From a virus (lineage: Duplodnaviria; Heunggongvirae; Uroviricota; Caudoviricetes): a stretch of 64,000 nt of DNA. The notes under the pieces are model-generated. The model searched no databases. It saw only the letters and a program-made list of their open reading frames with translations, and was not told the DNA's origin. The stretch covers positions 1 through 64,000 of IMG/VR virus record IMGVR_UViG_2740892219_000010, one strand, 5' to 3'. Made by a program: the position numbers and the translations under genes. Positions 33,577 to 52,695 of this stretch are shown in pieces (the stretch's first letter is position 1; each line of letters starts with the position of its first letter).

Positions 33577-33577
33577 A

Positions 33578-36408: not shown

Positions 36409-36447
36409 CGGTCTTTCCTCGGTATAAGTTAAACGCTGGTCAGGCGC

Positions 36448-36924: not shown

Positions 36925-36982
36925 AGCGTCTCCTGTCGCTAAAAATTGATTACGCTTAATCAGATTTGGGGCTCACCAACAG

Positions 36983-37213
36983 TTAAGCTGCTTCCGTTTT
37001 AGGCAAGCTGTCATCTGGGTTTGGGTAAAGATCCGGTCTAAGATCATGAGGGGTCACGCGCCATTCAAGAGCTTCAGATGTGCGCAAAACCTCTTCACCG
37101 GGAACCCGTCCTTTGAACCAGAGGCTTACCGTTTGTGGTTTTTTCCCTAATCGCCGCCCTAACTCGGATTGACTCATTACGGAAAGAATTTTGTCTTGCA
37201 GTTGTTTATCCAT
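36983..37213 (-). CDS. Cro-like HTH regulator
   Basis: 76 aa from ATG 37213 with RBS AAGGAG; HTH segment (SQSELGRRLGKKPQTVSLWFKGR); divergent from the repressor gene. Confidence 0.55.
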   Translation of the reverse strand: MDKQLQDKILSVMSQSELGRRLGKKPQTVSLWFKGRVPGEEVLRTSEALEWRVTPHDLRPDLYPNPDDSLPKTEAA

Positions 37214-37311
37214 ATGGACTCCTTGTGTCCGCGTCATCATTACAAACAATAACTGTAATTACAAATTATATTTGCAATGCTCCCTACAATTAAACCTTGT
37301 ATCCTTACGGT
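37214..37311. promoter_or_regulatory. oR-like divergent promoter/operator region
   Basis: Repeated half-sites ATTACAAAC, CTGTAATT, TTACAAATT, TTTGCAAT; minus-strand TATAAT (plus 37265-37270) suitable for a pR driving cro. Confidence 0.5.
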
Positions 37312-37725
37312 ATGAACACAAAAACGAAAAACATGGCTTTTGCTAGCCGACTACAACGGATTCTAAAAGACTTAGGCTGGTCTCAATCTGAGTTAGCTCG
37401 CCATATTGGGGTTACGGCTCAATCAGTTCAGGCATGGTGTAATGGGGTAACTCCAAGAAAAGATAAATTAGACAAGCTAGCAAAAGTGACCGGATACCCT
37501 GTTCATTTTTTCTTCATGAATGAAGGGGAATATTTGGATGAATCCACACTACACCCGGGTAATTACAATCAAGAACTAACCCCGCAAGAACAGGCTCTAC
37601 TGCAACTATTCAGAGGACTGCCTGAGAGCGAAAAAAATAAATTAATCAATGAGCTAAAAGAAAAAAGAGAGCACTTCGATCTACTGCTAAAAGAACTACT
37701 TGAAGCCAAAAACCAGACAAAATAG
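37312..37725 (+). CDS. CI-like repressor (XRE-family HTH, no S24 peptidase domain)
   Basis: ~138 aa; HTH segment (SQSELARHIGVTAQSVQAWCNG); no Ser/Lys autopeptidase domain; start uncertain (37297, 37312 or 37333) with no SD, so possibly leaderless. Confidence 0.7.
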   Translation: MNTKTKNMAFASRLQRILKDLGWSQSELARHIGVTAQSVQAWCNGVTPRKDKLDKLAKVTGYPVHFFFMNEGEYLDESTLHPGNYNQELTPQEQALLQLFRGLPESEKNKLINELKEKREHFDLLLKELLEAKNQTK

Positions 37726-37844
37726 TTCAGTTCAAATTTCCAGGCCAGCCGCTGCTGGCATGCAACTTTCCCCTAACACAAAAACACCTTTACACAGTGA
37801 ATATTTTTTTTGCCCCTCACTACAAATTATTTTTTAAAAACACA

Positions 37845-37873
37845 TTGACCATTACAAATACAAATTGTAAAGT
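37845..37873 (+). promoter_or_regulatory. pL-like promoter with overlapping operator palindrome
   Basis: TTGACC (37845-37850), 17 nt, TAAAGT (37868-37873); overlapped by TTACAAATACAAATTGTAA, the same TTACAA half-site as in the oR region. Confidence 0.5.
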
Positions 37874-38628
37874 CACTTTCATCAACAACGCTTACCCAGC
37901 GGCAGTTGTTCAGAAACAAGTTCTGACAGCCGGAAAGACGGCACCAAATTTTGCGCGTCGGCGCCAACACGGTGACAGAGGGAAAGACTTCACCGGCATA
38001 TGGCACATGTGTCGAAGCGGTCTGGATGGAAGCGGAGCCTTAACGCGTTGTCTCCATAGCAGGTAGCCGGAATGTGCAAGCCACAGCCAGGTATGAGCGA
38101 TTGATTCACCATCAAGGCGATACGGTGTGACCACCAGGGAAGAGTCCTGGCTACAACACGAGAGCGCACTTCATCGACTCAACTTTGAGCTTTGTCGTTA
38201 AATTTTGAAATGGCGGAGTGCGCTCCCGGTTGTGGTGAACAGGTGTTTAACGGGAACTCCCTGCCCGTTACCCGGTTCGATTCCGGGCGCCCATCATCAA
38301 TTTGCTGTGTTTAGTCTTTGCCCAGTCCGCACGATGGGCCATTTTTTCACACAGCCAGGTTTTATCGCTGTGCCTGAGTCCCCAACAGGAGAGGCCAAAC
38401 CCGCAGCGTGACACCAGGGAAAGACCGGAGGAAGTACCACGCCTGACCAGCGTTGACCATGAGCCTGACCAGCTCAAAACAGGAAAGACCAGCCCGGGCC
38501 TGACCAGCCCTGTACGGTCGTAATGGAAACATAACGACGCCGGAAACGTAACCGGCACCCTTTAGATAGCAAAAGACCCGCACAAGGCGGGCCAGTTACC
38601 CCGAACGGCGACCAAACCATTCGGATTT

Positions 38629-38652
38629 ATCACAAGTGACCAAACTTGTGAT
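38629..38652. promoter_or_regulatory. perfect inverted repeat ATCACAAGT-N6-ACTTGTGAT
   Basis: 9-bp arms, 6-bp spacer, upstream of the first early-left gene and overlapping the first copy of the ATGAGGAAAGACCA motif. Confidence 0.5.
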
Positions 38653-38736
38653 GAGGAAAGACCAACGACACTGACGCTATGGAAGCTGATCAATATTCGC
38701 TGATCGGCTCTGAGTATACATTACCAAGGAGTCGCT

Positions 38737-39057
38737 ATGGAAGCGCGCACCATCCCAGTAACACTCTTTATTCATTATGCAACTTCAACTTTCAGCCACG
38801 AAAAGCTGCTTGTTGCGACTGTTGATATGTCAAAAAATTTTCCAGACAGGTACATCCTTCTGGAAAGCCGCGAAATTGAAATTACCGTTAACCAGCCCGA
38901 GCCAATCGACATCATCGGTTTACAGGTCGAGCAACTGCGTGAACAAAAACAGAAAACAGTCGCCGACGCCCAACAGCGTATTGCTGCTATCGATGACAAA
39001 ATCCAGCAGTTACTTTGCATCGAATACACGCCAGATACCGATGAGCTCCCCTACTAA
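38737..39057 (+). CDS. hypothetical early-left protein
   Basis: 106 aa, RBS AAGGAG; first gene of the plus-strand early-left operon. Confidence 0.45.
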   Translation: MEARTIPVTLFIHYATSTFSHEKLLVATVDMSKNFPDRYILLESREIEITVNQPEPIDIIGLQVEQLREQKQKTVADAQQRIAAIDDKIQQLLCIEYTPDTDELPY

Positions 39058-39087
39058 AAACCACTGACCTGTAATGAGGAAAGACCA

Positions 39088-41307
39088 ATGACCATTTTTA
39101 ACGGCTTGTTAGAAGCGAAAAAAGGCGCGCTCAAAAACGGCGCGATCCCGGCGCTGGCCATCGCCATCGCCGCCCCTAACAAAAAAGTTGCCGAGAACAT
39201 CATCATCGGCAAATTGTGGGAAGCCTACCCTGACCACGGCGACAACTATTTCAAACCTAAAATCTGGGAAGATGCCCCGGGCCAACCGCGCCCAGGCGTC
39301 GGTGAGTTTGATGAGACGTTTGCCACAGAACACAGTTTTGATGGCGAAAAATGGGTAGTTAACACTCCTGTTGATTCAGATTGCAGTTCAGCAGATATCT
39401 CACAGGTTAGCGACCTGATGAAACTGCCGGCTCGTGAACGATTCGCCGCCGTTCTGCTGTTCAGCCACGACGCCAACGAAGTCGACAGTGAATTGCTTGC
39501 GCAGACGCGTGAATACCTGGAGATGCTCGATAACAGTGATACTGACAGTGAGGATGAGGTTGACGCGTTTAACCGCATCGTTCTTGATGCCATGGTGGCG
39601 TGTAAGCCCATCGAGTACATGCATATTGCTGGATTGAATAATCTGGTACATGCAATTTTGGCAAGTTGCGATACCCAGGAACAAAACCCGACCAGTTGGA
39701 CTATCTCCAAATTTATAAAAAAATGGGTAGAGAATCCCGGTAAACGCGATGAAATGCTGCCGGAGATAAAACCAGAAACAGCATCCGCACGTCCTTACAA
39801 ACAGACTCACGCCACTCTGGATCGTGAAATTGCCTGCGCCCTGTTACCTGTTGCCCCGGAAAAAATCACCCCCAGCATCCTGAAAGCGGCAGACGAAATA
39901 ATCAGTCAGGACAGGGAAGATTTTAAACGCTGGTCAATGGCCTTGCGCACAACGGATCAGATCCTTGCCTATGACCGCGCATCAGTATTCGGTGTTATTC
40001 AGAGCGCCCCCGCAAAAGACACGTACCACTTCCCGCAATCCCTGCGCAATCACATCGATAACTGGCTGCAAGCTAACGGGCAGCGTGATGCAAATGCTGT
40101 TGAAGAGAAGCCAAAGGAAGCAGCACCAAAGGATGATGTAAAAGTCATCAACCACGGCGGCGGACGATTCTCAATTGATGGGATGATGTCAGAAACACCC
40201 TCAAATCAGGGCGAAAAAAGCGAAACAGCAAATGCTGGAGAACGTAGTTTGCAGCAGTTGCGTGAGCAGTTTGTCACGCCTCGCCATGTGTATGACGTAC
40301 CTGAAAATAACGCCGTATCACAGAGGGAACCTGCAGCTATTACTACCCCGGCAGAAGAGACTCCTCCACAAGAACAACTTAGCGAGCAGGTAAAGGATCT
40401 GGTGCAGAACGTTGACGCGCTGGTTGAGCGGATCCATACCGAAGAGCACAAGCGGCAGAATGCAATCTCAGCTATCGAAACGGAGTTAAAGGACTCCGGC
40501 GACACGGATAACCTGGCATTGTGGAAGAACGTATTCAAAACCGATGAGCGCTTCACCAGTGCTTTCTCTCAGAACGGCGGCGGCACATCCATCAACGGCA
40601 CTTATATAGCGATGAAAGCGACTCGCGAATTTGGGCCGTTTGGTATTGGCTGGGGTGTAGAGGTGCTGGAGGAGCGCTTTGATAAAGGCGCACCGATAGT
40701 TCGTAAAAAACAGGTTGGTGAAAAAATAGAATGGGATCTGATTCAAGACGGTGTTGGCGGGTACCTATGTGAAATGCACCACACCATGAAAGTGAGAGTC
40801 TGGTACATATTGAATGGGGTACGCGGTGAGTCCGAGGCTTACGGATGCACACCTTATATCTACGACACTAAATACGGACCAACAAGCGACGGCGAAGCGC
40901 CGAAGAAATCCTGGACGGATGCTGTTAAGAAAGCGCTATCCCCTCTCGGATTCAGCGCCGATATTTTCATGGGCCTGTACGACAATCCGGAATACCGCCA
41001 GAGGAATAAAGCTGAGTTTGATATCAAGAATGCCAGCGAGAATGCGGAAGATGCTACCCGTCTGCGTAAGGAACTGGATGAGGAGCTTATCAACGTTGCC
41101 AATACGCTGGCCGCCGCGGTAACCACCAACGAAGTAAACAAGGTATTTGGCCTCATCGCCCGCGAAGTGGATGTACACAGGAAAGCAGCGGAAGCCAAAG
41201 GCGATAAAGAATATTCATCGTATCTGGGATCGCGCCTGCGCCGTATCACCGACATTAAAACTGAACGCCTCGCCGCCCTTACCGCTGCACAGGAGCAAAC
41301 CGCATGA
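39088..41307 (+). CDS. large early protein, possible recombination function (C-terminal region SSAP-like?)
   Basis: 739 aa; start preceded by the conserved ATGAGGAAAGACCA motif; C-terminal region carries a motif reminiscent of Erf/Rad52-type annealing proteins (KKALSPLGFSADIFMGLYD); followed by a Gp157-like gene. Confidence 0.55.
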   Translation: MTIFNGLLEAKKGALKNGAIPALAIAIAAPNKKVAENIIIGKLWEAYPDHGDNYFKPKIWEDAPGQPRPGVGEFDETFATEHSFDGEKWVVNTPVDSDCSSADISQVSDLMKLPARERFAAVLLFSHDANEVDSELLAQTREYLEMLDNSDTDSEDEVDAFNRIVLDAMVACKPIEYMHIAGLNNLVHAILASCDTQEQNPTSWTISKFIKKWVENPGKRDEMLPEIKPETASARPYKQTHATLDREIACALLPVAPEKITPSILKAADEIISQDREDFKRWSMALRTTDQILAYDRASVFGVIQSAPAKDTYHFPQSLRNHIDNWLQANGQRDANAVEEKPKEAAPKDDVKVINHGGGRFSIDGMMSETPSNQGEKSETANAGERSLQQLREQFVTPRHVYDVPENNAVSQREPAAITTPAEETPPQEQLSEQVKDLVQNVDALVERIHTEEHKRQNAISAIETELKDSGDTDNLALWKNVFKTDERFTSAFSQNGGGTSINGTYIAMKATREFGPFGIGWGVEVLEERFDKGAPIVRKKQVGEKIEWDLIQDGVGGYLCEMHHTMKVRVWYILNGVRGESEAYGCTPYIYDTKYGPTSDGEAPKKSWTDAVKKALSPLGFSADIFMGLYDNPEYRQRNKAEFDIKNASENAEDATRLRKELDEELINVANTLAAAVTTNEVNKVFGLIAREVDVHRKAAEAKGDKEYSSYLGSRLRRITDIKTERLAALTAAQEQTA

Positions 41308-41873
41308 GCACTGCTATCGCTATTGCAAAAGAATATGCCAGTCTGATTGACCTGTTAGAAACCTCCGACGAACTGACGCCAGAGATGATCGCCGACACGC
41401 TTGAAGGTATGGAAGGAGAACTGGGAGACAAACTGGACGCCATGATGGTCATCTGCCGCAATTTACAGGGCAATGCCAATACCTGCGCTGAAGAAATGTC
41501 TCGCCTGGCTACCCGTAAGACGTCCTTTGAAGGCAAGGAAAAAGCAATTCGAAAGCATATGCTCGCCTGCCTGCAAGCTGCTGGCCTGGATAAACTGAAA
41601 ACCGCAAAAAACACATTTACTGATGCACAGGGGGCTATCCGGGTAATTATTGATAACAAAGATAAGATCCCGGACGAGTATGAGGGTGTGTCACTTGTTG
41701 ATGTAGAAACGGTTATTACACCAAACAAGCGAGCCATTAAAGAAGTGATTGAATCTGCGGAGGCGGTTGCCGCCGAAATACTGGCGCGTGGAGAAACACC
41801 ACCAGCCGAGTTATTAAACCCGGTACCAGGCGCACATCTGGAACGCGGCGAACGGTCACTGAGGATACGCTAA
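41304..41873 (+). CDS. Gp157-like protein (Sipho_Gp157 family, recombination-module associated)
   Basis: 189 aa, overlaps the upstream stop (ATGA); overall resemblance to Gp157-family proteins as recalled. Confidence 0.45.
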   Translation: MSTAIAIAKEYASLIDLLETSDELTPEMIADTLEGMEGELGDKLDAMMVICRNLQGNANTCAEEMSRLATRKTSFEGKEKAIRKHMLACLQAAGLDKLKTAKNTFTDAQGAIRVIIDNKDKIPDEYEGVSLVDVETVITPNKRAIKEVIESAEAVAAEILARGETPPAELLNPVPGAHLERGERSLRIR

Positions 41874-42055
41874 TGCTTAAACTCACATTAAAGCGTGGTG
41901 ACGCGGTTCACCTGGTACTTGCCGATGGTACCAATGGCATTATTGAAGCACGGAGCCGCTGCGAACTTGGGCTACACCTGCCAGAAAACATTAAGGTCAC
42001 TCGGGAGAAATCGGCATTCCCCCCACCAGAACTGATTACGCCTAATCAGAAATAA
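41873..42055 (+). CDS. small protein with CsrA-like pattern
   Basis: 60 aa; MLKLTLKRGDAVHLVL...IKVTREK loosely matches the CsrA pattern MLILTRRVGETLMI...VSVHREE. Confidence 0.3.
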   Translation: MLKLTLKRGDAVHLVLADGTNGIIEARSRCELGLHLPENIKVTREKSAFPPPELITPNQK

Positions 42056-42264
42056 AAACTCACCATCGCTAGCATTGCGATTCACCAGTAACCGGAGGAT
42101 CACAATGCTGCGATGGCAACCGGGAGCAACTCTGCTCTCCGCATTTGATATCAAAATTGGCCGACTGTCGGCCAGCGTCAGGAAACAGACTTTGACCGAG
42201 TCTGATATTGCCCGTGCCTGCCATGTGGCAGATGACGCAATAAGCTACATAATGAGGAAAGACC

Positions 42265-42528
42265 ATGAAAAGCGATCACGACATAATCACCAGAGAAGAA
42301 ATGGTCGAGCTGACGGGAAGCCCACTTAAATCAAAGCAATGTGAGGCTCTTCGCCGGGCTGGAATTTTCTTCATGGAAAGGGCTGACGGACACCCAAAAA
42401 CAACCTGGGGCCATTTCATGAACCCAATAAAATTTCGCAATTTACAGGAGGTGACGACGCGAAAAGATGATGAACCTGATTTTGGAGCAATATTTAATGG
42501 CCGGAAAGAGAAAGAACCCAGCAGATAA
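42265..42528 (+). CDS. excisionase-like protein (positional)
   Basis: 87 aa immediately upstream of and overlapping int; start preceded by ATGAGGAAAGACC. Confidence 0.4.
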   Translation: MKSDHDIITREEMVELTGSPLKSKQCEALRRAGIFFMERADGHPKTTWGHFMNPIKFRNLQEVTTRKDDEPDFGAIFNGRKEKEPSR

Positions 42529-43513
42529 CTGGATGCCGCCTCGTGTTTACCAGGGCAAAGCGGCCTACGAATTCAGGAATAAAGATAACAAAGCGATACG
42601 CCTGTGCGCATTGGATGCACCACGATCAGCCGTATGGCTGGCATATGAAAAAGCGGTCGGTGACGAAAAAGAAAGAAATACTTTTCAGGCGCTCGCGGAA
42701 CAATTCATGACCTCCCCTGATTTTATGGATTTGGCAGTCGAAACCAGGAAAGACTACACAAAATATTCCGGAAAAGTTCTGCCTGTCTTCGGGAAGATCG
42801 ACCCGGATAAAATCAAACCTGAACATATTCGGCGCTATATGGATCAACGCGGTTTATCAAGCCGAACTCAGGCAAACAGGGAAAAAAGCTTTATGTCCCG
42901 GGTATTCCGTTGGGGTTATGAACGAGGTTATGTTCAGAGGAATCCTTGTCAGGGAGTTAAACAGTTTAAAGAGACAGCTCGCGAACGTTATATTACGGAT
43001 GAAGAATATCAGGCCGTTTATGAAGTGTCTCCTGACGTCGTTCGCGTGGCAATGGAGATTGCCTACTTATGCGTGGCCAGACAGAGTGATGTACTTTCAT
43101 TGCAGAAAGACCAACTGTTCGATTCCGGGATCTACATTCGTCAGGGAAAAACCGGCGTTAAGCAAATCAAAGCCTGGTCGCCTCGTCTGCAGAAAGCGAT
43201 AGCTCTGGCTCGTTCTCTGCCATTAAAAACGGGAATCAGTAGTCTGTTTGTGATTCATCAAACTACCGGTGGCAAGTACACCCGTGATGGTTTTAACTCT
43301 CGTTGGCGTGATGTCAAAGCTGCGGCACAGGAAAAATATCCTCATCTGCAAATAGACTTCACATTTCATGATCTGAAAGCAAAAGGTATCTCTGATCTGG
43401 AAGGCAGCCTGGAAGAGAAGCAAGCAATTTCCGGGCATAAGAACCCACGACAGACAGCAGCATATGACCGAAAAGTTAAAGTAGTGCCCGTAGTTGGTGG
43501 CCAGAGAAAATGA
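42467..43513 (+). CDS. int: tyrosine integrase (lambda Int family)
   Basis: 348 aa; C-terminal catalytic region (FHDLKAKGISDLEG...GHKNPRQTAAYDRK); transcribed toward the tRNA-Leu core. Confidence 0.85.
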   Translation: MMNLILEQYLMAGKRKNPADNWMPPRVYQGKAAYEFRNKDNKAIRLCALDAPRSAVWLAYEKAVGDEKERNTFQALAEQFMTSPDFMDLAVETRKDYTKYSGKVLPVFGKIDPDKIKPEHIRRYMDQRGLSSRTQANREKSFMSRVFRWGYERGYVQRNPCQGVKQFKETARERYITDEEYQAVYEVSPDVVRVAMEIAYLCVARQSDVLSLQKDQLFDSGIYIRQGKTGVKQIKAWSPRLQKAIALARSLPLKTGISSLFVIHQTTGGKYTRDGFNSRWRDVKAAAQEKYPHLQIDFTFHDLKAKGISDLEGSLEEKQAISGHKNPRQTAAYDRKVKVVPVVGGQRK

Positions 43514-43516
43514 ATG

Positions 43517-43551
43517 ATGATGCGTCCAGAGAAAAATCATCTTCGGACGCA
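43517..43551. repeat. inverted repeat GATGCGTCC-N17-GGACGCATC immediately after int
   Basis: 9-bp perfect arms; adjacent direct repeats CATCTTCGGA x2; possible att arm or Int-binding elements. Confidence 0.4.
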
Positions 43552-43575
43552 TCTTCGGAAATGAGAAAGAAGATA

Positions 43576-43601
43576 CAAAAAAACCACCCGAAGGTGGTTT
43601 C
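43576..43601 (-). terminator. rho-independent terminator (minus strand)
   Basis: ACCACC-CGAA-GGTGGT hairpin followed on the minus strand by a 7-T run; downstream of the tRNA-Leu 3' core. Confidence 0.55.
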
Positions 43602-43643
43602 ACGACACTGCTTATTGCTTTGATTTTATTCTTATCTTTCCCA

Positions 43644-43698
43644 TGGTACCCGGAGCGGGACTTGAACCCGCACAGCGCGAACGCCGAGGGATTTTAAA
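43644..43698 (-). other. 55-nt 3' segment of tRNA-Leu(UAA) (anticodon loop to CCA): attachment-site core
   Basis: Minus strand reads TTTAAAATCCCTCGGCGTTCGCGCTGTGCGGGTTCAAGTCCCGCTCCGGGTACCA, matching the 3' part of enterobacterial tRNA-Leu(UAA) as recalled; upstream sequence cannot form the D-arm or acceptor stem. Confidence 0.7.
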
Positions 43699-43777
43699 AA
43701 CTATCAACCACCATTTATAAATCATAACCTTATGATTTTATTAACTTTGCAAATAGCTCTATACGATGCCATTTGAA

Positions 43778-43820
43778 TCTATTGTCACTTTTTATCGCCA
43801 CTTTTTACCCTCTATTGTCA
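43778..43820. repeat. direct repeats TCTATTGTCA (x2) in the AT-rich arm next to the P2-like int
   Basis: Copies at 43778-43787 and 43811-43820 with CACTTTTTA x2 between them; typical of Int arm-type binding sites. Confidence 0.4.
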
Positions 43821-44806
43821 AAAGGGTTCAATTCAACTGCAGCCTCTAAATGACCTGGAGCAAAATGCGCATAACGCATAGTCATTTTTATATCGCTATG
43901 CCCCAGTATTTTTTGCAACACAAGAATATTTCCTCCCCGCATCATAAAATGACTGGCAAACGTGTGACGTAGCACATGAGTTAATTGCCCATCAGGAAGC
44001 TCGATCTTCGCTCTCTTAATTGCAGCGTCAAAAGCCTCATAACATGGTGAAAATAACGCTCCTCGTTTTTTAGGAAGCATAGCCTGCAATTGAGGTGAAA
44101 TCGGTACAGTGCGGTTCTTCTTTCCTTTAGTTTTAACAAATGTGATTCGACCGGGCAGCACTTGAGATTGCTTTAATCCTTCAGCTTCACTCCACCGAGC
44201 ACCAGTCGCAAGCCCAATACGGACAACAACCCCCAAATCTTTATTCCGTGACTCATCACACGCAATCAGAAGGCGTTCAATCTCATCTACATACAGAAAC
44301 GCCAATTCCTTTTCTTCCTCACGAAACTTGCGAATGCCAGTCAGGGGGTTTTCACCAGACCACTCCCCAAGGCGCTTCAGTTCGGCAAAAACAGCATGTA
44401 GATATGACTGCTCGCGATTAACGGTTGCTTCACTAAGTTTTTTCTTCCCCTTGGGATTCCATTCTCCTGATAACCTCCTTTCCCGATAAGTAGCAAACAT
44501 ATTTTTGTCAAACTGAGAAGCAAATGGATCTCCCAGCCTAGAACAAATAGACTCAAGTTTGACTTTGCGCTCTGCACCAGAGGACAAGGTTTTACCGTAC
44601 ATCTCAAACCAACGAGCAACCAACTCAGAAAGACGAGGACCAGAACCATCTTGAAACTCGTCTCCAACTCTACTATTCATTAAACGGCGCTCATAAGAGA
44701 GCGCCTCACTTTTTGTCGCAAACTGTTTACGAATACGTTTTCCCGATGCCCCGTAAGGATAACATTCGCAAAGCCATTTACCTGATGGAATCTTACGAAC
44801 CGACAT
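43805..44806 (-). CDS. int: tyrosine integrase (P2/186 Int family)
   Basis: 333 aa; catalytic box HVLRHTFASHFMMRGGNILVLQKILGHSDIKMTMRYAHF; transcribed toward the tRNA-Leu core. Confidence 0.85.
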   Translation of the reverse strand: MSVRKIPSGKWLCECYPYGASGKRIRKQFATKSEALSYERRLMNSRVGDEFQDGSGPRLSELVARWFEMYGKTLSSGAERKVKLESICSRLGDPFASQFDKNMFATYRERRLSGEWNPKGKKKLSEATVNREQSYLHAVFAELKRLGEWSGENPLTGIRKFREEEKELAFLYVDEIERLLIACDESRNKDLGVVVRIGLATGARWSEAEGLKQSQVLPGRITFVKTKGKKNRTVPISPQLQAMLPKKRGALFSPCYEAFDAAIKRAKIELPDGQLTHVLRHTFASHFMMRGGNILVLQKILGHSDIKMTMRYAHFAPGHLEAAVELNPFDNRG

Positions 44807-44811
44807 TTTAG

Positions 44812-45159
44812 TTACTTATCACATAAATCAAATGCAGCCTTAGTGACATCTCCCAGATTCTTTTTTAACCCTGGGGCGGCATCATTATCCAGCCAAAATG
44901 GATTATTGTTATCTAACGGTAACGCACCAAATGTTTTACCTTTTATTCGAGCCAAACCTGTAAGCGCATATAACTTATTATCGTCAAAATTCATCACATA
45001 AGGATTACCATCTAGACACTGTAACTGAACCTCATCAGTATTAAATGGCCATACCCCATTGAAACTCTCACGTTCAATATTTTTAAAAGGCATTGCGACG
45101 GCAGAAAAAGAAAACATAGATAAAAAAGTAACTAATAGTTGAACCTTTTTTACTTTCAT
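44812..45159 (-). CDS. secreted/periplasmic cargo protein
   Basis: 115 aa with N-terminal signal peptide (MKVKKVQLLVTFLSMFSFSAVA); RBS GAGGT; between repressor and int. Confidence 0.5.
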   Translation of the reverse strand: MKVKKVQLLVTFLSMFSFSAVAMPFKNIERESFNGVWPFNTDEVQLQCLDGNPYVMNFDDNKLYALTGLARIKGKTFGALPLDNNNPFWLDNDAAPGLKKNLGDVTKAAFDLCDK

Positions 45160-45188
45160 ACCATTACCTCAATTTAGCTCAAGTAAGA

Positions 45189-45839
45189 TTACAAATTAAA
45201 AAACATCCTAGAAATGGCACCACCTACCAAACCCCCTACGCAGATAAAGAATATTATTTCTTTTGGATAAAGTCGGATTAATTCTGAAGCACGAAGTCGG
45301 ACTTCTGGTAAGGTCGAATTCTCTGTGTTGCTTGATACCGATTGTTGCTCTAACCACGACAATGCAGACTGCAACTGAGAACGAGTAAGATCGTTTAAAC
45401 GTCCTGTACCGAAATTGATATGGCAATACCGCAGAAGTTTTTGTCGAAGTCCACAGTCTTCACTGTTACGTAGTAATAAACTTACAAGAGCCTTACAGGC
45501 ATCATGATCTTTACATCGCTCAAGCATTGCATGCAGAAAACTCTCCGCTGTTTTATATTGATTTACTGTCATATCATCAATACCAGCTACACCAATCTCC
45601 GCATGTACTTTTTGCCAAATAATAAACGCTTCAGTATTGCTAGCTTCTGCAATAGCAGCAACCAAGCTATTTAGCTCCTTACGCTGAGCCTTAAGCAAAG
45701 GGCGATCGTCATCATCATTATTCGAAGGGATTGCGATATTGACGGTATGAGAACCATCATATCGCCCTATCTGAATATTCTTTTCGTGAAAATCACGCCC
45801 AGCAACGCGATTGTTTGAACCGTTTGAGTTGACGGCCAT
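45189..45839 (-). CDS. C-tail-anchored membrane cargo protein
   Basis: 216 aa; RBS GGGAGG; single C-terminal TM (IIFFICVGGLVGGAISRMFF); N-terminus NNRVAGRDF repeats the repressor C-terminus NNRIAGRDY. Confidence 0.55.
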   Translation of the reverse strand: MAVNSNGSNNRVAGRDFHEKNIQIGRYDGSHTVNIAIPSNNDDDDRPLLKAQRKELNSLVAAIAEASNTEAFIIWQKVHAEIGVAGIDDMTVNQYKTAESFLHAMLERCKDHDACKALVSLLLRNSEDCGLRQKLLRYCHINFGTGRLNDLTRSQLQSALSWLEQQSVSSNTENSTLPEVRLRASELIRLYPKEIIFFICVGGLVGGAISRMFFNL

Positions 45840-45854
45840 GTCACCTCCCTACTA

Positions 45855-46259
45855 TCACCTACCCTTAGTTTCGTTATAGTCACGCCCAGCGATACGGTTA
45901 TTACCGCCAGAAATATTTAACTCACGTCCTGATGGCTGAGTTTCCTTTTCACTGGCCGCACCTTTTAAAGCCCCGATCACCGCGTTTTTCACATCTAACG
46001 AAGCTGCTCGAAAGCGAGTAATCAACTCCTGCTCATCATCGTTATAAGTTTCAGGTGAGTGAATTCCCAACACAACATACTGAACATCAAGGCCAAAACG
46101 AGACAGCGCTGCCAAATACGCAGCATCAGGAAAGCTATCTCCTTTCTCATATCTAAGCTGAGTTAGCTTTTTGACTCCACCAATGTCGCTCATAGCAACT
46201 TGACTAAGTCCCAATCTTTCCCTTTCCTCACGCAACCTCTGACCAATATCATTTTTCAT
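45855..46259 (-). CDS. immunity repressor (P2 C / 186 CI-like XRE HTH)
   Basis: 134 aa with N-terminal HTH (LGLSQVAMSDIGGVKKLTQLRYEKG); divergent from the cox-like early operon. Confidence 0.7.
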   Translation of the reverse strand: MKNDIGQRLREERERLGLSQVAMSDIGGVKKLTQLRYEKGDSFPDAAYLAALSRFGLDVQYVVLGIHSPETYNDDEQELITRFRAASLDVKNAVIGALKGAASEKETQPSGRELNISGGNNRIAGRDYNETKGR

Positions 46260-46334
46260 ACAAAAACCTTGACAGGTATCTTTTTTGATACCAAAATGAT
46301 TTCACGAGCTATTAGATGATCACAATATATCACT

Positions 46335-46541
46335 ATGAAACAAGTTCTTCACGATACCAGATCACGCATTCCGCGTAACACCGCCACAGGTCCAAGACTG
46401 GCACTTCGGATGTCCCTCGAGGAGCGAGCCGTCATTGATGAAATGGCAGCTAAAGAACAACGCTCATCCTCTAACATGGCGCGCATGATCTTCCTTCGCG
46501 GCCTAGAGCTAACCCAGAAAGAACAAAACAAATCTTCCTGA
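46335..46541 (+). CDS. ribbon-helix-helix DNA-binding protein
   Basis: 68 aa; segment PRLALRMSLEERAVIDEMAAKEQRSSSNMARMIF is RHH-like; first gene of the early operon. Confidence 0.45.
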   Translation: MKQVLHDTRSRIPRNTATGPRLALRMSLEERAVIDEMAAKEQRSSSNMARMIFLRGLELTQKEQNKSS

Positions 46542-46557
46542 TCAGGAGGCTAATGGG

Positions 46558-46761
46558 ATGTCAGGTATAACCATCAATATCAATGTGAATGCCCCCTATG
46601 TATCCCTGCAGAAATATGCAGAGATAACAGGTATCCCTCTTAATACATGCAAAAAGATGTTGGCTGACGGTCGAATTATTATCCGACCCAAACGCGCCAA
46701 AATGGAAAAGCCTGAAGTAAACCTTGTGGCGATGTTAAAAGACGCTTTGGCTAACAGCTAA
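46558..46761 (+). CDS. Cox-like HTH protein
   Basis: 67 aa; YVSLQKYAEITGIPLNTCKKMLADGRI resembles the P2 Cox HTH region as recalled. Confidence 0.45.
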   Translation: MSGITININVNAPYVSLQKYAEITGIPLNTCKKMLADGRIIIRPKRAKMEKPEVNLVAMLKDALANS

Positions 46762-46782
46762 AACAATGAACAGAGCATCATC

Positions 46783-47133
46783 ATGAAAAAAAACACTAAT
46801 ATTCCATACTCCAAATTTCGTAATGGCGTAGAACGCCACGCTAACCGTTTCGCTATCAGAACATCACGTAGCAACACTCGCTACAGCCTGAGCGAAACAC
46901 ACGCTACACCTGATGGCCATCCCGTAAAACAAATTGGTGAACACACCTGGCTGATTGAGAAAGCTGGAATCGTGGTTCACAGATGCCAACGCAACCCATT
47001 TACCGGAAACCGCATTTTTGCTCTGAGCAACGGCGACAATCAGTTTGGACAGGATTTCACGTTGTACGAAGCTCTGCGCACGGTTGATCGTCTGCTACGC
47101 GGACAGAATTTCATTAAACAGGCTGATTTATAA
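46783..47133 (+). CDS. hypothetical early protein
   Basis: 116-aa ORF in the early operon. Confidence 0.4.
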   Translation: MKKNTNIPYSKFRNGVERHANRFAIRTSRSNTRYSLSETHATPDGHPVKQIGEHTWLIEKAGIVVHRCQRNPFTGNRIFALSNGDNQFGQDFTLYEALRTVDRLLRGQNFIKQADL

Positions 47134-47143
47134 CAGGTGCTTT

Positions 47144-47422
47144 ATGACCAAAGACCATGCTCAGGGTGTATTTATCCGCTTTATTGATTTTCGCGGTGAG
47201 CTGTTGTTGCGCGCATCAGCTATTGATGGAGTGGTTCCGGTAGATAAAAGCACGGCCACTTACATTTATCTGAACGGCACACGCCTGACCGTAGAGATTC
47301 CATATCAACCCGTATGCGAAATTATTAGCGAAGCTGAAAAAGCACGTCAGGTTAATGGCGATAAACCCTATCTCGAAATTATCTGCATGGATTCAGAAGC
47401 TGAAATTCAGAAGGCAGATTAA
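47144..47422 (+). CDS. hypothetical early protein
   Basis: 92 aa from an internal ATG of ORF 47045-47422. Confidence 0.35.
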   Translation: MTKDHAQGVFIRFIDFRGELLLRASAIDGVVPVDKSTATYIYLNGTRLTVEIPYQPVCEIISEAEKARQVNGDKPYLEIICMDSEAEIQKAD

Positions 47423-47433
47423 AGGGCGTTGCG

Positions 47434-47676
47434 ATGGATAAAGAATATAAAACTCTCGTCAATAAAGCACTTGAGCGCTTTCATTTTCGCTTAAACGCAT
47501 CAGGCGCTCATGCTGAACGCGCAGCCCGAGAGTCATTGACCAGAGCTATCAAGAGTATATACGACACGGCTTTTTACGTTGACGACCCGGACGCGCTCGA
47601 CGAGCTTTCCGTACTCGTCTGCGCCGCAGAAAACGGGGACCATATTGAGCCATATAAACTGGGAAATATTGCATGA
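47434..47676 (+). CDS. hypothetical early protein
   Basis: 80-aa ORF. Confidence 0.35.
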   Translation: MDKEYKTLVNKALERFHFRLNASGAHAERAARESLTRAIKSIYDTAFYVDDPDALDELSVLVCAAENGDHIEPYKLGNIA

Positions 47677-47872
47677 GTATATTTATCTCATGGCTTGTTC
47701 TGATTATTTCGGTGGCCTGCGCTATTGGGATTATGCGAATTATTAATTCAGTAAAAAAGATTGAACGCTTTTTCACTGAAGAATAACCGCGCAAATAAGA
47801 CTCCAGGTTAAATAAGAAAATGTGAAAACAATCCGCATTCGCGGAGGTATTCGCACACGCCAAGGAGGCGTA

Positions 47873-48076
47873 ATGGCAATTAAGCATTTTCCTGTCGTTC
47901 GTTTCACCTCCAGAGGACGTGAATACGAAGTTGACGAACGCCTGATTACCACAATCGACAAACACCGTTCAGAAAAGGATGCACATCACATCTATCTCAC
48001 TGACGGTACTTACTTCTGCGCCACCAACGTGGTGCAGGTGAATCTTATCAGACAGGTACAGGAGTCACGCAGATGA
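47873..48076 (+). CDS. hypothetical early protein
   Basis: 68 aa from an internal ATG of ORF 47822-48076. Confidence 0.3.
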   Translation: MAIKHFPVVRFTSRGREYEVDERLITTIDKHRSEKDAHHIYLTDGTYFCATNVVQVNLIRQVQESRR

Positions 48077-48318
48077 CCATTCTGGACTACATCGCTGCCA
48101 ATCCGGGTTGTAGCGGTGGAGAAATCGCCGCAGCACTGAATACACCAACCACAACCATTAATGCGGAGCTACGCCGTCTCTGGCGCAGCGGTTCAGTCAT
48201 AAGAAAAGAGCGCAAAACAGGCGGTCGCTTTTCTTATCAGGTAAACCCGATGCCGTTTGGGTGTAGCAACCCACTAACCCAGATGTTCAACCAGCTACTG
48301 AGGGAAATCAGAGCATGA
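48073..48318 (+). CDS. hypothetical protein, winged-helix-like
   Basis: 81 aa; segment GCSGGEIAAALNTPTTTINAELRRLWRSGSV. Confidence 0.35.
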   Translation: MTILDYIAANPGCSGGEIAAALNTPTTTINAELRRLWRSGSVIRKERKTGGRFSYQVNPMPFGCSNPLTQMFNQLLREIRA

Positions 48319-48459
48319 GCACCTCCTGCTGCCGGAAACCACGTCGGGCTTCAGCAGCTCATCCGGCAGCAAAACAAACTCCGTTAATTCCTGTTCCGGG
48401 CCTTTCCTGCACCTTGCGGCGGGAGGCCTTCGCACATCTGCAACAAGAGGATTGCCGCA

Positions 48460-48825
48460 ATGATTCTCGCCGAAGACTTTTTTGATTACCTGCTGAAAAC
48501 CGAGCGCGATTTTGGTATTCGCGTTCTCGACCGCTATGCAATGTATCTGAAATCACTGCCGGAACAGCAGCTCCCGGACGGCCAGATTGTTATTGACGGG
48601 CGCTACATGGTTGGTAGCTGCCAGGATGATTACACACTTTCCCGCATCGAAAGCGGCACGCCTTCCGTACTGGGTATTTACCAGCGAACTTCATTTCTGA
48701 TTGCTGATGTAATTGCTGACAGCATTCGCATAACACACCGTTATGCCAGCACAGAGAGCACCATGCAGGAAATCCAGCGGCTGGCTACCGTCTGCCACAA
48801 TGCACTGAGCGGCAAGGCGGAGTAG
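48460..48825 (+). CDS. hypothetical early protein
   Basis: 121-aa ORF immediately upstream of the A gene. Confidence 0.35.
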   Translation: MILAEDFFDYLLKTERDFGIRVLDRYAMYLKSLPEQQLPDGQIVIDGRYMVGSCQDDYTLSRIESGTPSVLGIYQRTSFLIADVIADSIRITHRYASTESTMQEIQRLATVCHNALSGKAE

Positions 48826-48830
48826 TCAGC

Positions 48831-51653
48831 GTGGCAACGGAGTACATCAGAAACTGGCAACAACCACGCCATGCAGTCGGTCGCGAGGGAACGGGGGAGC
48901 CTGTCCGCCCCTCCCTTCTTTCTTCCTGGCTGGATGCCTACCGGGCAGAGAACGAGCGCCGCCAGGAAATGGCTGATGCGGCGTTCTCCGCCACGCCGCT
49001 GGGCAATTTGATTAATAAAAACCTGGACGCACAGGAAAAACAGGACAAAGCCATCACACTGGCAAGAGAAGCCAGAAAACAGGCGTGTGGCGCGGTGGAT
49101 GAAGCAATTGCCGCACTGCGCCTGCTGCCGTCCTATCTGCGAGATCCGCTTATCCGCCATCTCTCTTTCCTGCGCAAAAAACAGGAATCCGATCGTCAGA
49201 AAGGCAAAAAGAGCTGGCAGGCTGAACGCTACGCGCGCGGAACCCTGCGCAAAATATTCGAACGTCTGGAGCGCACCGACAGACGCTGGCTGACACCGGG
49301 TTATCGCTCCCTTGCCGGGCGTGAACGCCTGGATGATTTACTTTACCTGCCGCAGCTCAACAAACACCAGATACAGACGCTGGCCGTCATGACAGCGGCG
49401 ATGTTCAGCAGCACCTTCGAAAAACTCTGCGATGACTTTGGCGCGACCGATGGCGAGCTGACCATGGATATAACGCTGAAGGCGTATCAGATGCTGGCCC
49501 GCATGGCGTTACATCTGCACACAGTGCCGCCGCATTATGACGCACTGACAACAGACAAAGACCGGAAGAACGAACCGGACACGGAGCTGCTGCCGGGTGC
49601 AATCCTCCGCCTGACCTGTGCGGACTGGTGGAAACGCAAATTGTGGCTTTTACGTTGCGAATGGAGAGAGGAACAACTCCGCGCTGCCTGTCTGGTTTCC
49701 AGAAAAACATCCCCCTATCTGAGTCAGGACGCATTAAGTGAATTTCGCGCACAGCGCGAGAAAACACGCGATTTCCTGAAAAGTTTCATGCTGGAAAATG
49801 AAGACGGGTTCACGATTGATCTTGAGACGGTGTATTACGCGGGAGTAAGTAACCCGGTCCACCGTAAGGCAGAAATGATGGCCACCATGAAGGGGCTGGA
49901 ACTTCTGGCCGAAGCCCGTGGCGACAAAGCGGTATTTCTGACCGTTACCTGCCCGTCAAAATATCACGCAACAACGGAGAACGGTCATCCGAATCCCAAA
50001 TGGAACGGCGCCACCATGCGCGATTCCAGCGATTACCTGGTTAACACTTTTTTTAAGGCAGTCCGCAAAAAACTGAACCGCGACGACCTGCGCTGGTATG
50101 GTATCCGCACGGTGGAGCCACACCATGACGGCACCGTGCACTGGCACATGATGGTCTTTGCACATCCTGAAGAAATCGACAGCATCGTGGACATCACCCG
50201 TGATATTGCCATTCGCGAAGACCGCCACGAGCTGGGCAATGACATAACTCCGCGCTTTAAGGCAGAGTACGTCGACGGTTCGAAAGGTACGCCGACCAGC
50301 TACATCGCCACCTACATCGGAAAGAACCTGGACAGCCGCGCCGTGGATGGCATTGACCCGAAAACAGGCAAGCCACGCGTTGATCACGAAACCGGAAAAT
50401 CAATGACCGAGAGCGTGGAACGCGCCATCGGCTGGGCGCGCCTTCACCGCGTCCGCCAGTTCCAGTTCTTTGGTATCCCCTCCCGTCAGGTATGGCGTGA
50501 ACTCCGCCGCCTTGCCAGTCAGATGGCCCGCAACCCGGAAGGTCCACAACGTCTGGAAAATGACGCAATGGATGCGGTACTCGCTGCCGCTGATGCCGGG
50601 TGTTTTGCCACCTACATTGAGAAACAGGGGGGCGTACTTGTTCCACGCAAGGATTACCTGATTCGCACCGCCTACGACCTCGCAGAAGAGCTGAACGATT
50701 ACGGCGAGCAAAGCGTACAGATTTACGGGATCTGGTCGCCACAAATCGGGGAATCTTCCCGCGTGTGCACGCACCCGGATAACTGGAAGCTGGTAAGACG
50801 TAAACCGGAAGCGGAAGACAGCGCCCGCGAAAATGGTTTTGACCTTCAGGGCGGCCCTGCCGCCCCTTGGACTCGTGGCAATAACTGTCCCCGTGTACAG
50901 GAAACGGACAACAACGGGACAGAACAGCCGGAAGAACGGCCAGCACCGTGGCCGCAGCTTCCTGACGGCGTTGAAGTGAATGAATGGATGCGCTCACTGA
51001 AACGGCACGAACGCCGGGCGCTGATGCGTTCGCTGCGTGACAAACAGGCAAAAAACAGCAGTGATGAAATGCAGAACTGGACACAGAGCCGCAAACAGCC
51101 GCGGCCTTTGCCTGATAACCACGAGTTACTCGCTAAAGAATGGCGGGAGTCTGCCGAATCTCTCGGCCTGCATATCGGTAAACAACAGATGCTGCACCTG
51201 TTACGGGGCGGCAGTCTGTACGTTGACGGCAGCATCATTGCGCCGCAGGGATATGAAATTGTACGTAAACCGGATACCCGACCGGACAGCCGAATCACGC
51301 AGCTCTGGCAGCGCCTGAGCCGTAATCACAGCGTAAGCAGCACGGAGATCCGCCATAACCCGGTTTCCAGCTATCTGAAACAGCTCGGTGCATCAGACCC
51401 AGAAGCCGCCGCACGCCTGGCATCCACACTTCAGCAGGACCAGAACACCATGAAAACCCCCGTTACCGTGCTTTCTGACATGCTGCGCGCCATCCGTGAC
51501 GCAGAGCACGCACAGAGAATCAGTGAAACCACTGAACGCGCCCACCGCAAAGCAGACCTGCTGCGGGGTGGCCTGACCCGTGGGAACAAAAAACAGACAG
51601 AAACGGGATTCACAAATCCCGTAAATGAGCAAAAAACGCGCCGCGAAATATGA
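48831..51653 (+). CDS. replication initiation endonuclease (P2 gpA-like rolling-circle Rep) with long C-terminal extension
   Basis: 940 aa; HUH-type motif (TVHWHMMVFAH) and Tyr motif (SYIATYIGKNLD); P2 A is ~760 aa, so ~180 extra C-terminal residues. Confidence 0.8.
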   Translation: MATEYIRNWQQPRHAVGREGTGEPVRPSLLSSWLDAYRAENERRQEMADAAFSATPLGNLINKNLDAQEKQDKAITLAREARKQACGAVDEAIAALRLLPSYLRDPLIRHLSFLRKKQESDRQKGKKSWQAERYARGTLRKIFERLERTDRRWLTPGYRSLAGRERLDDLLYLPQLNKHQIQTLAVMTAAMFSSTFEKLCDDFGATDGELTMDITLKAYQMLARMALHLHTVPPHYDALTTDKDRKNEPDTELLPGAILRLTCADWWKRKLWLLRCEWREEQLRAACLVSRKTSPYLSQDALSEFRAQREKTRDFLKSFMLENEDGFTIDLETVYYAGVSNPVHRKAEMMATMKGLELLAEARGDKAVFLTVTCPSKYHATTENGHPNPKWNGATMRDSSDYLVNTFFKAVRKKLNRDDLRWYGIRTVEPHHDGTVHWHMMVFAHPEEIDSIVDITRDIAIREDRHELGNDITPRFKAEYVDGSKGTPTSYIATYIGKNLDSRAVDGIDPKTGKPRVDHETGKSMTESVERAIGWARLHRVRQFQFFGIPSRQVWRELRRLASQMARNPEGPQRLENDAMDAVLAAADAGCFATYIEKQGGVLVPRKDYLIRTAYDLAEELNDYGEQSVQIYGIWSPQIGESSRVCTHPDNWKLVRRKPEAEDSARENGFDLQGGPAAPWTRGNNCPRVQETDNNGTEQPEERPAPWPQLPDGVEVNEWMRSLKRHERRALMRSLRDKQAKNSSDEMQNWTQSRKQPRPLPDNHELLAKEWRESAESLGLHIGKQQMLHLLRGGSLYVDGSIIAPQGYEIVRKPDTRPDSRITQLWQRLSRNHSVSSTEIRHNPVSSYLKQLGASDPEAAARLASTLQQDQNTMKTPVTVLSDMLRAIRDAEHAQRISETTERAHRKADLLRGGLTRGNKKQTETGFTNPVNEQKTRREI
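51604..51621. promoter_or_regulatory. palindrome CGGGATT-CACA-AATCCCG (copy 1)
   Basis: 7-bp inverted arms; inside the 3' end of the A gene; second copy 73 bp downstream. Confidence 0.45.
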
Positions 51654-51676
51654 AGCGCGCACAAAACAGGCAAAAG

Positions 51677-51694: not shown

Positions 51695-51729
51695 TAAACG
51701 ATTAATTAATCAACATAAGGAAAATCGAC

Positions 51730-52689: not shown

Positions 52690-52695
52690 CCCTCC

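What the first reader, a model, noticed from the sequence alone, without database searches (positions are those of the whole stretch)
43514..43804. Two integrase genes converge on a single 55-bp tRNA-Leu 3' core: head-to-head prophage junction
The lambda-type int (plus strand, ends 43513) and the P2-type int (minus strand, ends 43805) both point at the 55-nt tRNA-Leu(UAA) 3' fragment at 43644-43698, which is not a complete tRNA. The core is followed on the minus strand by a strong terminator (43576-43601). It is flanked by arm-like repeats on both sides: GATGCGTCC-N17-GGACGCATC and CATCTTCGGA x2 on the lambdoid side, TCTATTGTCA x2 on the P2-like side. Simple tandem integration at one attB would place the prophages in the same orientation, so this geometry suggests two different target sites, an inversion between the prophages, or one partner integrating into the other's att.
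Basis: partly seen in the sequence, partly recalled or inferred. Interest (0 to 1): 0.5.

Follow-up and report, generated by a model that had tools for sequence, protein, structure and literature searches.

The report
Two prophages stacked at tRNA leuZ
Two unrelated E. coli prophages sit side by side in the same tRNA-Leu (leuZ) attachment site; their integrase genes face each other only because each phage family places its integrase on a different side of its attachment site, so this is an ordinary, already known arrangement.

Summary
Window 43644-43698 (-) is exactly the last 55 nt of E. coli leuZ tRNA-Leu(UAA). No complete tRNA is present, and two integrase genes converge on the fragment.

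The repeated unit is not 55 bp but 124 bp (43575-43698). It comprises the leuZ 3' half, the 67-nt 3'ETS-leuZ small RNA and its terminator. It is 100% identical to native K-12 sequence.

In the collinear strain 1439 this block occurs three times in direct orientation: yecA | block | left prophage ... int | block | int ... right prophage | block fused to the leuZ 5' half (intact leuZ), then cysT, glyW, pgsA. Each prophage also occurs alone at leuZ (JJ1887; strain H3).

Free phages related to the left integrase (mEp390, Fostie, ZF40) carry xis-int, about 60 bp, then the block. The right integrase is 59% identical to HP1 integrase, and HP1 attP has the mirror geometry.

So this is plain tandem ("piggy-back") integration at one attB. 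Two of its alternatives are refuted: separate target sites and an inversion. The third holds only in the trivial sense of sequential integration.

Low interest. The only mildly new point is that both attP sites carry a full 3'ETS-leuZ sponge copy.

The parts
1..43574 (.). Left prophage, most of it. It has a lambda-like early region and head genes and a P2-like contractile tail. Its far end lies about 0.8 kb beyond window position 1.
   Evidence: Collinear at 93-99% identity with the prophage of strain 1439 lying between yecA and the int-int junction.
42467..43513 (+). Tyrosine integrase of the left prophage, lambda type and mEp390/ZF40-like.
   Evidence: Pfam Phage_integrase plus Phage_int_M. 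The best solved relatives are lambda Int structures at E about 1e-8. It is 63-67% identical at DNA level to the int genes of mEp390, Fostie and ZF40. It is present in 440 of 5426 E. coli genomes.
43519..43553 (+). Inverted repeat GATGCGTCC-N17-GGACGCATC, a hairpin directly after the left int stop codon. Its role is unknown.
   Evidence: the 111-nt fold has z = -4.4. No equivalent is evident in mEp390, Fostie or ZF40.
43538..43559 (+). Tandem direct repeat CATCTTCGGA x2 with a 12-nt period. It is the candidate arm-type Int-binding site pair of the left phage attP.
   Evidence: The related phages have their own period-12-13 repeats at the same position: ZF40 ATATTAGGAA x2, Fostie TATTATGAA x2, mEp390 ATGGCGAA x3. 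Each also has an inverted copy about 41 nt beyond the block in the other arm. In strain 1439, TCCGGACAT lies at the matching position.
43575..43698 (-). 124-bp att identity block shared by the host attB and both phage attP sites. This is the middle copy of the tandem array.
   Evidence: 100% identical to native K-12 sequence, to strains H3, JJ1887 and CEA601S, and to all three copies in strain 1439.
43577..43643 (-). Complete copy of the 3'ETS-leuZ small RNA (a RyhB/RybB sponge), including the leuZ operon terminator at 43601-43580.
   Evidence: K-12 annotates this sequence as b4759, and the sequences are identical. The terminator scan is. Its function is described in PMC6191717.
43644..43698 (-). 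The 3' 55 nt of leuZ tRNA-Leu(UAA), from the anticodon loop to CCA. It is the displaced or duplicated tRNA half.
43692..43698 (-). Anticodon-loop bases TTTAAAA at the end of the identity block. This is the inferred strand-exchange region.
   Evidence: Identity with leuZ stops at 43698 for the right phage and one base further for the left phage. The HP1 attP identity stops at the same GAGGGATTTTAAA. The exchange points themselves are inferred, not shown.
43699..43804 (.). Int-proximal arm of the right (HP1/P2-type) phage attP. It holds ATCGCCA at 43794-43800, flanked by TCTATTGTCA at 43778-87; the second TCTATTGTCA copy (43811-20) lies just beyond this arm, inside the int coding sequence.
   Evidence: The motif [AT][TC]CGCCA occurs 4 times in the reconstructed attP arms against 0.17 expected, and 5 times in HP1 attP against 0.14 expected. 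In both it occurs at about +93 to +104 from the core end. TCTATTGTCA is a real repeat but has no clear counterpart in HP1.
43805..44806 (-). Tyrosine integrase of the right prophage. It is HP1-type within the P2-like phages.
   Evidence: 59% identical to the integrases of HP1, HP2 and S2. PDB 1AIH (HP1 integrase) matches at E = 4.6e-75, and 5c6k/5dor ('Integrase' in the table; recalled, not checked, to be the P2 integrase entries) at about 1e-54 and 1e-41. Pfam Int_N plus Phage_integrase. The int region matches in 599 of 5426 E. coli genomes (525 cover at least 80% of it), including O157:H7 EDL933.
43699..64000 (.). Right prophage, P2-like (Peduoviridae). The window holds its first 20 kb or so. 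The intact leuZ is expected about 15 kb beyond position 64000.
   Evidence: Collinear with strain 1439. In strain 1439 the prophage ends at an intact leuZ followed by cysT, glyW and pgsA.

Best explanation
Two unrelated temperate phages have integrated one after the other into the same attB, the 3' half of leuZ. This forms a tandem ('piggy-back') array: yecA | block | left prophage | block | right prophage | intact leuZ-cysT-glyW-pgsA. The window shows the middle junction. Each phage attP carries its own copy of a 124-bp host-identical block made of the leuZ 3' half, the 3'ETS-leuZ spacer and the terminator. Integration therefore regenerates a complete tRNA, spacer RNA and terminator, and leaves a displaced partial copy. 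The integrases face each other because int lies on the terminator side of the core in the mEp390/ZF40-type phage and on the anticodon side in the HP1-type phage. No inversion or second target site is needed. The most likely order is inferred, not shown: the left phage came first, and the HP1-type phage then entered the regenerated intact leuZ. Strand exchange is inferred to occur in the anticodon loop, by analogy with what I recall of HP1.
For: Shown:
- The block is 124 bp and 100% identical to native K-12 leuZ plus 3'ETS-leuZ.
- Strain 1439 is collinear with the window and has three direct copies of the block, with yecA on one flank and an intact leuZ on the other.
- In JJ1887 the left prophage is alone, with its int arm fused to the block and an intact leuZ.
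- In strain H3 the right prophage is alone, as yecA-block-int.
- The free phages mEp390 (attP annotated), Fostie and ZF40 have xis-int, about 60 bp, then a homologous block. Compensatory changes preserve the tRNA T-stem and the terminator stem, and arm repeats are conserved in position.
- The right Int is 59% identical to HP1 Int. HP1 attP ends its tRNA-Leu identity at the same GAGGGATTTTAAA, with int on the same side and strand.
- leuZ is a recognised prophage site in STEC, and piggy-back prophages are described in the literature.
- In CEA601S the left element is a decayed remnant beside an intact right integrase. This fits the idea that the left element is the older one.
Against: - The far ends of both prophages lie outside the window. 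The three-copy picture rests on strain 1439, which is 93-99% identical but not the same genome.
- All block copies are identical, so no polymorphism marks the crossover point or the order of integration.
- The reverse order of the two prophages was not found in 5426 genomes, and the observed order was found only twice. The numbers are too small to tell which hybrid site is used.
- The arm-site assignments are comparative only.
Confidence: 0.87

Rival explanations
1. The array is the same, but the order is opposite. The HP1-type phage integrated first into leuZ. The left phage then integrated into the displaced partial copy next to yecA, which is the hybrid att site of the first prophage.
For: It yields exactly the observed structure. 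The displaced copy keeps the whole 124-bp identity block. Strains with only the HP1-type prophage at leuZ are common.
Against: The displaced copy lacks the tRNA 5' half on the far side of the anticodon loop, so one half of a normal attB core is replaced by phage arm DNA. In CEA601S the left element is the decayed, presumably older one. The two orders cannot be separated by sequence.
Confidence: 0.2
2. There are two different target sites. The right phage uses the leuZ core, and the left phage uses a separate site just downstream of the leuZ terminator.
For: In the window, the left phage-specific sequence ends at 43574, which is 70 bp from the tRNA fragment.
Against: In strain 1439 the far junction of the left prophage carries the whole block, including the tRNA half up to the anticodon loop. 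In JJ1887 its int arm is joined to the block and an intact leuZ. mEp390, Fostie and ZF40 carry the tRNA half in their attP.
Confidence: 0.02
3. An inversion between two prophages that were first integrated in the same orientation created the head-to-head geometry.
For: Inversions between prophages are common in E. coli (text).
Against: The block copies are direct repeats, not inverted. The flanks yecA and cysT-glyW-pgsA are in native order and orientation. Each prophage has the same orientation relative to those flanks as in the single lysogens. The free phage genomes already have the respective int-to-core geometry.
Confidence: 0.01
4. RecA-dependent homologous recombination across the 124-bp identity, rather than Int-mediated exchange, inserted the second phage genome.
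For: 124 bp of perfect identity is enough for homologous recombination.
Against: Both phages encode intact integrases beside their att sites. Both occur at this site in hundreds of genomes. The product would be indistinguishable by sequence.
Confidence: 0.05

Closest known systems
Haemophilus phage HP1 integration system (HP1 Int; attP in tRNA-Leu)
   Same: The right Int is 59% identical to HP1 Int, and PDB 1AIH matches at E = 4.6e-75. The attP identity block runs from the anticodon loop of tRNA-Leu(UAA) through the tRNA 3' end and beyond, ending at the same GAGGGATTTTAAA. Int is on the anticodon side, on the same strand as the tRNA. ATCGCCA/ACCGCCA motifs occur in both arms.
   Different: The host is E. 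coli. Downstream of the tRNA half, the block holds 3'ETS-leuZ and a terminator, whereas HP1 holds a complete tRNA-Lys. The strand-exchange positions were not determined here.
attP of phages mEp390, Fostie and Pectobacterium phage ZF40 (lambda-type Int targeting leuZ)
   Same: The order is xis-int, about 60 bp of arm with a tandem direct repeat, then the leuZ 3' half with spacer and terminator block. mEp390 has this region annotated as attP.
   Different: The int genes are only 63-67% identical at DNA level. The arm repeats differ in sequence. The blocks in those phages are 80-88% identical to E. coli sequence, whereas here the block is 100% identical.
Piggy-back (tandem) prophages at one attachment site
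   Same: More than one prophage lies in the same att site, with one repeat pair for each element and an outer pair for the array. Fouts 2006 reports about 3% of a curated set.
   Different: Nothing essential. Here the two elements are unrelated, so their int genes happen to converge.
[quoted passage not shown]
   Same: The sequence is identical over all 67 nt, including the terminator.
   Different: The window copy follows only the last 55 nt of leuZ. It is not behind the glyW-cysT-leuZ promoter; it lies downstream of the HP1-type int operon on the same strand. Its expression and processing are unknown.

Membership tests
Tandem (piggy-back) prophages at a single tRNA attB | Each element is bounded by direct copies of the same core, giving n+1 copies for n elements. 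| tested here: met
   The collinear strain 1439 has three identical direct copies. Only the middle copy lies inside the window.
Tandem (piggy-back) prophages at a single tRNA attB | Each element is found alone at the same attB in other genomes. | tested here: met
   JJ1887 has the left prophage alone. Strain H3 has the right prophage alone.
Tandem (piggy-back) prophages at a single tRNA attB | An intact target gene is regenerated at one end of the array. | tested here: met
   Strain 1439 has an intact leuZ at the far end of the right prophage. This could not be read for the window's own genome.
HP1-type tyrosine integrase and attP | The integrase is homologous to HP1 Int over its full length. 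| tested here: met
   59% identity over 331 aa. PDB 1AIH matches at E = 4.6e-75.
HP1-type tyrosine integrase and attP | The attP/attB identity ends in the anticodon loop of tRNA-Leu(UAA) and extends past the tRNA 3' end. | tested here: met
HP1-type tyrosine integrase and attP | Staggered strand exchange occurs within the anticodon loop. | not testable with these tools
   The HP1 exchange points are recalled from the literature, not re-read here. No polymorphism in the block is available to map exchange.
HP1-type tyrosine integrase and attP | Arm-type Int-binding repeats are present in both attP arms. | tested here: inconclusive
   [AT][TC]CGCCA is enriched in the arms of both HP1 and this element, but binding was not tested. 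The Yersinia relative has only one copy.
Lambda-type integrase with arm-type sites | The catalytic domain is homologous to lambda Int. | tested here: met
   Lambda Int structures match at E about 1e-8. Pfam Phage_integrase and Phage_int_M are both above their cut-offs.
Lambda-type integrase with arm-type sites | An N-terminal arm-binding domain is present. | tested here: inconclusive
   No Pfam N-terminal domain was reported for residues 1-72.
Lambda-type integrase with arm-type sites | Repeated arm sites lie in both attP arms and co-vary with the integrase. | tested here: met
   Four phages have a tandem repeat at the same place, plus an inverted copy about 41 nt past the block, each with its own sequence.
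3'ETS-leuZ sponge RNA | The sequence matches the annotated K-12 sRNA b4759. | tested here: met
   100% identity.
3'ETS-leuZ sponge RNA | It is transcribed as the 3' trailer of a complete leuZ and released by RNase E. | tested here: not met
   Only 55 nt of leuZ precede the window copy, and glyW and cysT are absent. Whether it is expressed from phage promoters is not testable here.

The most novel reading that the evidence does not exclude
Both phage attP sites carry a complete, host-identical 3'ETS-leuZ sponge RNA. A double lysogen therefore has three copies. The window copy lies as the 3' end of the HP1-type repressor-int operon: it is on the same strand, and no predicted terminator lies between the int stop at 43805 and the leuZ terminator. 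If that transcript is made in lysogens and processed, leuZ-integrating prophages would raise the sponge dose. That would shift the RyhB/RybB thresholds, meaning the iron and envelope-stress responses. It would be a lysogenic-conversion effect encoded in an att site.
Probability: 0.12. Interest if true: 0.5.

Novelty: already known. Interest (0 to 1): 0.14.

Why it matters
It matters mainly as a correction. Converging integrases at a partial tRNA do not signal rearrangement or an unusual target. Prophage orientation should be judged from the att core, not from the int gene. For annotation, it gives exact boundaries: the left prophage ends at 43574, the shared 124-bp block is 43575-43698, and the right prophage starts at 43699. 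The att duplication also includes a known regulatory RNA, 3'ETS-leuZ. The full-text search made here found no paper that links 3'ETS-leuZ to prophage att sites.

Tried and rejected
- Rfam scan of 42000-45500 at E up to 1 gave only a chance snoRNA match and no tRNA or sRNA family.
- I looked for polymorphisms between block copies to map the crossover and the order of integration. All copies are identical.
- I searched 5426 E. coli genomes for the reverse tandem order, using a chimeric junction of the right-phage far arm, the block and the left-phage far arm. None was found.
None was found. The left-arm repeat gained support only from positional conservation in related phages.
- TCTATTGTCA has no clear HP1 counterpart. 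The ATCGCCA motif is a better-supported arm-site candidate for the right phage.
- Literature searches for HP1 attP and for the Williams tRNA-sublocation paper found nothing readable in the library. Statements about HP1 strand-exchange points rest on memory.
- The record 'Escherichia phage 520873' is a prophage excerpt that includes yecA. It is not a true attP and was not used as one.

Full report
**1. What is in the sequence**

The window is E. coli DNA. An ORF of 348 aa ends at 43513 on the + strand, and an ORF of 333 aa ends at 43805 on the - strand. Both are tyrosine recombinases.

- The left integrase is most similar to lambda Int among solved structures, at E about 1e-8.
- The right integrase matches HP1 integrase (1AIH) at E = 4.6e-75, and 5c6k/5dor at about 1e-54 and 1e-41; that table names those two only 'Integrase', and my recollection that they are the P2 integrase entries was not checked. 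It is 59% identical to HP1, HP2 and S2 Int over its whole length.

Between them, 43644-43698 on the - strand is exactly the last 55 nt of leuZ, tRNA-Leu(UAA). It starts at the first base of the anticodon loop. ARAGORN finds no tRNA in the whole window. A terminator hairpin with a T-run lies at 43601-43580 on the - strand.

**2. The repeated unit is 124 bp and includes a known small RNA**

Comparison with strain H3, which has only the right prophage, shows that host-identical sequence begins at 43575. In K-12, the 67 nt immediately downstream of leuZ are annotated as the small regulatory RNA 3'ETS-leuZ, b4759.

The window segment 43575-43698 has three parts: 2 nt, the complete 3'ETS-leuZ with its terminator (43577-43643), and the leuZ 3' half (43644-43698). 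It is 100% identical to K-12, H3, JJ1887, CEA601S and each of the three copies in strain 1439.

3'ETS-leuZ is excised from the glyW-cysT-leuZ precursor by RNase E. It pairs with RyhB, and its level affects RyhB stability (PMC6191717).

**3. Distal ends, read in a collinear relative**

Only two of 5426 complete E. coli genomes carry the int-int junction: strain 1439 and CEA601S. The window is collinear with strain 1439 from end to end, apart from three cargo replacements. In the window's orientation, strain 1439 reads as follows.

- yecA and its native intergenic DNA, then the block ending ...GGGATTTTAAAT, then TTGGTCGC..., which is the far arm of the left prophage.
- About 43 kb of left prophage, its int, a 61-bp arm, then the block.
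- AACTATCAACC..., the right int, about 37 kb of P2-like prophage, then ...ACAAAATACAAAT.
- The block continuing into the leuZ 5' half (intact leuZ), then cysT, glyW and pgsA.

That makes three direct copies for two elements, with native flanks in native orientation. By this alignment, the left prophage's far junction lies about 0.8 kb left of window position 1. The intact leuZ lies about 15 kb right of position 64000. Both are inferences for this genome.

**4. Each phage uses leuZ on its own**

The left integrase occurs in 440 genomes, many of them ST131. In JJ1887 its 61-bp arm is joined to the block and an intact leuZ-cysT-glyW.

The right integrase region matches in 599 genomes, 525 of them over at least 80% of its length, including O157:H7 EDL933 and O121 strains. 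In strain H3 the order is yecA, block, int.

leuZ is listed as a shared prophage site in STEC O121:H19 (PMC8767318).

**5. Free phage genomes already have the two geometries**

*Left type.* mEp390 (attP annotated in the record), Fostie and Pectobacterium phage ZF40 all have xis-int, about 60 bp, then a homologous block. The blocks are 80-88% identical to the E. coli block. The differences include compensatory changes:

- the tRNA T-stem pair C-G becomes U-A in mEp390 and Fostie;
- the terminator stem ACCACC/GGTGGT becomes ACCGCC/GGCGGT in ZF40.

The phage-borne tRNA half and terminator are therefore kept foldable.

*Right type.* HP1 attP (annotated at 251-694) holds a complete tRNA-Lys and the tRNA-Leu 3' half, ending at GAGGGATTTTAAA. 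An arm follows, then int on the - strand. This is the same layout as window 43575-44806. Yersinia phage vB_YenM_31.17 is similar.

The head-to-head int geometry therefore follows directly from placing a ZF40/mEp390-type attP and an HP1-type attP in the same core orientation.

**6. Arm sites**

On the left side, CATCTTCGGA x2 has a 12-nt period. It lies exactly where ZF40 has ATATTAGGAA x2, Fostie has TATTATGAA x2 and mEp390 has ATGGCGAA x3. Each of those phages also has an inverted copy about 41 nt beyond the block in the other arm. Strain 1439 has TCCGGACAT at the matching position, which agrees 7 of 9 with the inverted repeat.

The overlapping inverted repeat forms a stable hairpin but is not evidently conserved. 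Its role is unknown.

On the right side, the motif [AT][TC]CGCCA is enriched in the arms of this element (4 observed, 0.17 expected) and of HP1 (5 observed, 0.14 expected). In both it occurs about 95-105 bp from the core end. The TCTATTGTCA repeat is real, but I could not tie it to a conserved feature.

**7. Mechanism and order**

Shown: there is one attB, two attP sites carrying the same 124-bp block, and a tandem array.

Inferred: strand exchange occurs in the anticodon loop (43692-43698). The identity stops there for both phages, and I recall that HP1 exchanges there.

If the incoming phage uses the complete attB, the newest element is always the one next to the tRNA 5' half. The HP1-type prophage would then be the later arrival. 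The decayed state of the left element in CEA601S fits this. The opposite order cannot be excluded. In that case the left phage would have entered the displaced copy beside an existing HP1-type prophage. I give it about 0.2. The reverse physical order was not found in the collection.

**8. Comparison with what is known, and verdict**

Tandem occupancy of one att site ('piggy-back' prophages) is an established phenomenon (PMC1635311). tRNA-Leu targeting by HP1-type integrases and attP blocks that extend beyond the tRNA are seen in the HP1 record itself. This is therefore an ordinary, already known arrangement. It is rare for this particular pair of phages (2 of 5426 genomes).

The one aspect I did not find discussed is that leuZ-integrating phages duplicate the 3'ETS-leuZ sponge. 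The four papers that mention both terms appear to do so only in passing. In HP1-type lysogens, a copy sits at the 3' end of the int operon, with no predicted terminator in between. Whether that has any regulatory effect is untested and, in my estimate, unlikely to be large.

Noticed in passing
window 43577-43643 (-): A complete, 100% identical copy of the K-12 small RNA 3'ETS-leuZ (RyhB/RybB sponge) is part of the att duplication. Both phage attP sites carry it, so lysogens hold 2-3 copies.
   Followed up: partly
window 30126-30953 (+): A 275-aa GIY-YIG protein matches the PADLOC anti-phage defence model PD-T4-3 at E = 1.7e-137. It lies in a cargo segment (about 26993-31041) of the left prophage that is replaced by other genes in strain 1439.
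   Followed up: partly
window 25616-26719 (+): An ImmA/IrrE-type M78 peptidase (capP-like in PADLOC) is followed by a 201-aa protein with no family match. Both lie in the left prophage.
   Followed up: no
window 51730-52689 (+) and 53006-54168: The P2-like prophage carries a ParM plasmid-segregation gene. Next to it is a variable segment with an Ead/Ea22-like protein. Strain 1439 instead has an AAA ATPase plus an S8 peptidase at that position. This looks like a cargo hotspot between the replication gene and the portal gene.
   Followed up: partly
window 1-22000: The left prophage is a mosaic. It has lambda-like head genes (terminase, gpW, portal, S49 protease, decoration and major capsid proteins) joined to a P2-like contractile tail (baseplate V/W/J/I, sheath, tube, gpU/X/D). 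It is 'lambdoid' only in part. This reading comes from the strain 1439 annotation and collinearity.
   Followed up: partly
window 43515-43557 (+): A stable hairpin lies immediately after the left int stop codon and overlaps the arm repeats. No U-tract follows it, and it is not evidently conserved in mEp390, Fostie or ZF40.
   Followed up: partly
L008 (mEp390), L009 (Fostie), L010 (ZF40); alignment A1: The phage-borne leuZ halves and terminators differ from E. coli by compensatory substitutions that keep the T-stem and the terminator stem paired. This suggests selection for a functional regenerated tRNA and terminator, or origin from another host species.
   Followed up: partly
L007 (strain CEA601S) 1-1613: In the second genome with this junction, the left prophage is a decayed remnant. 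Its int is reduced to its last 111 bp, and RepO and Gp157 are partial. The neighbouring HP1-type int is intact.
   Followed up: no
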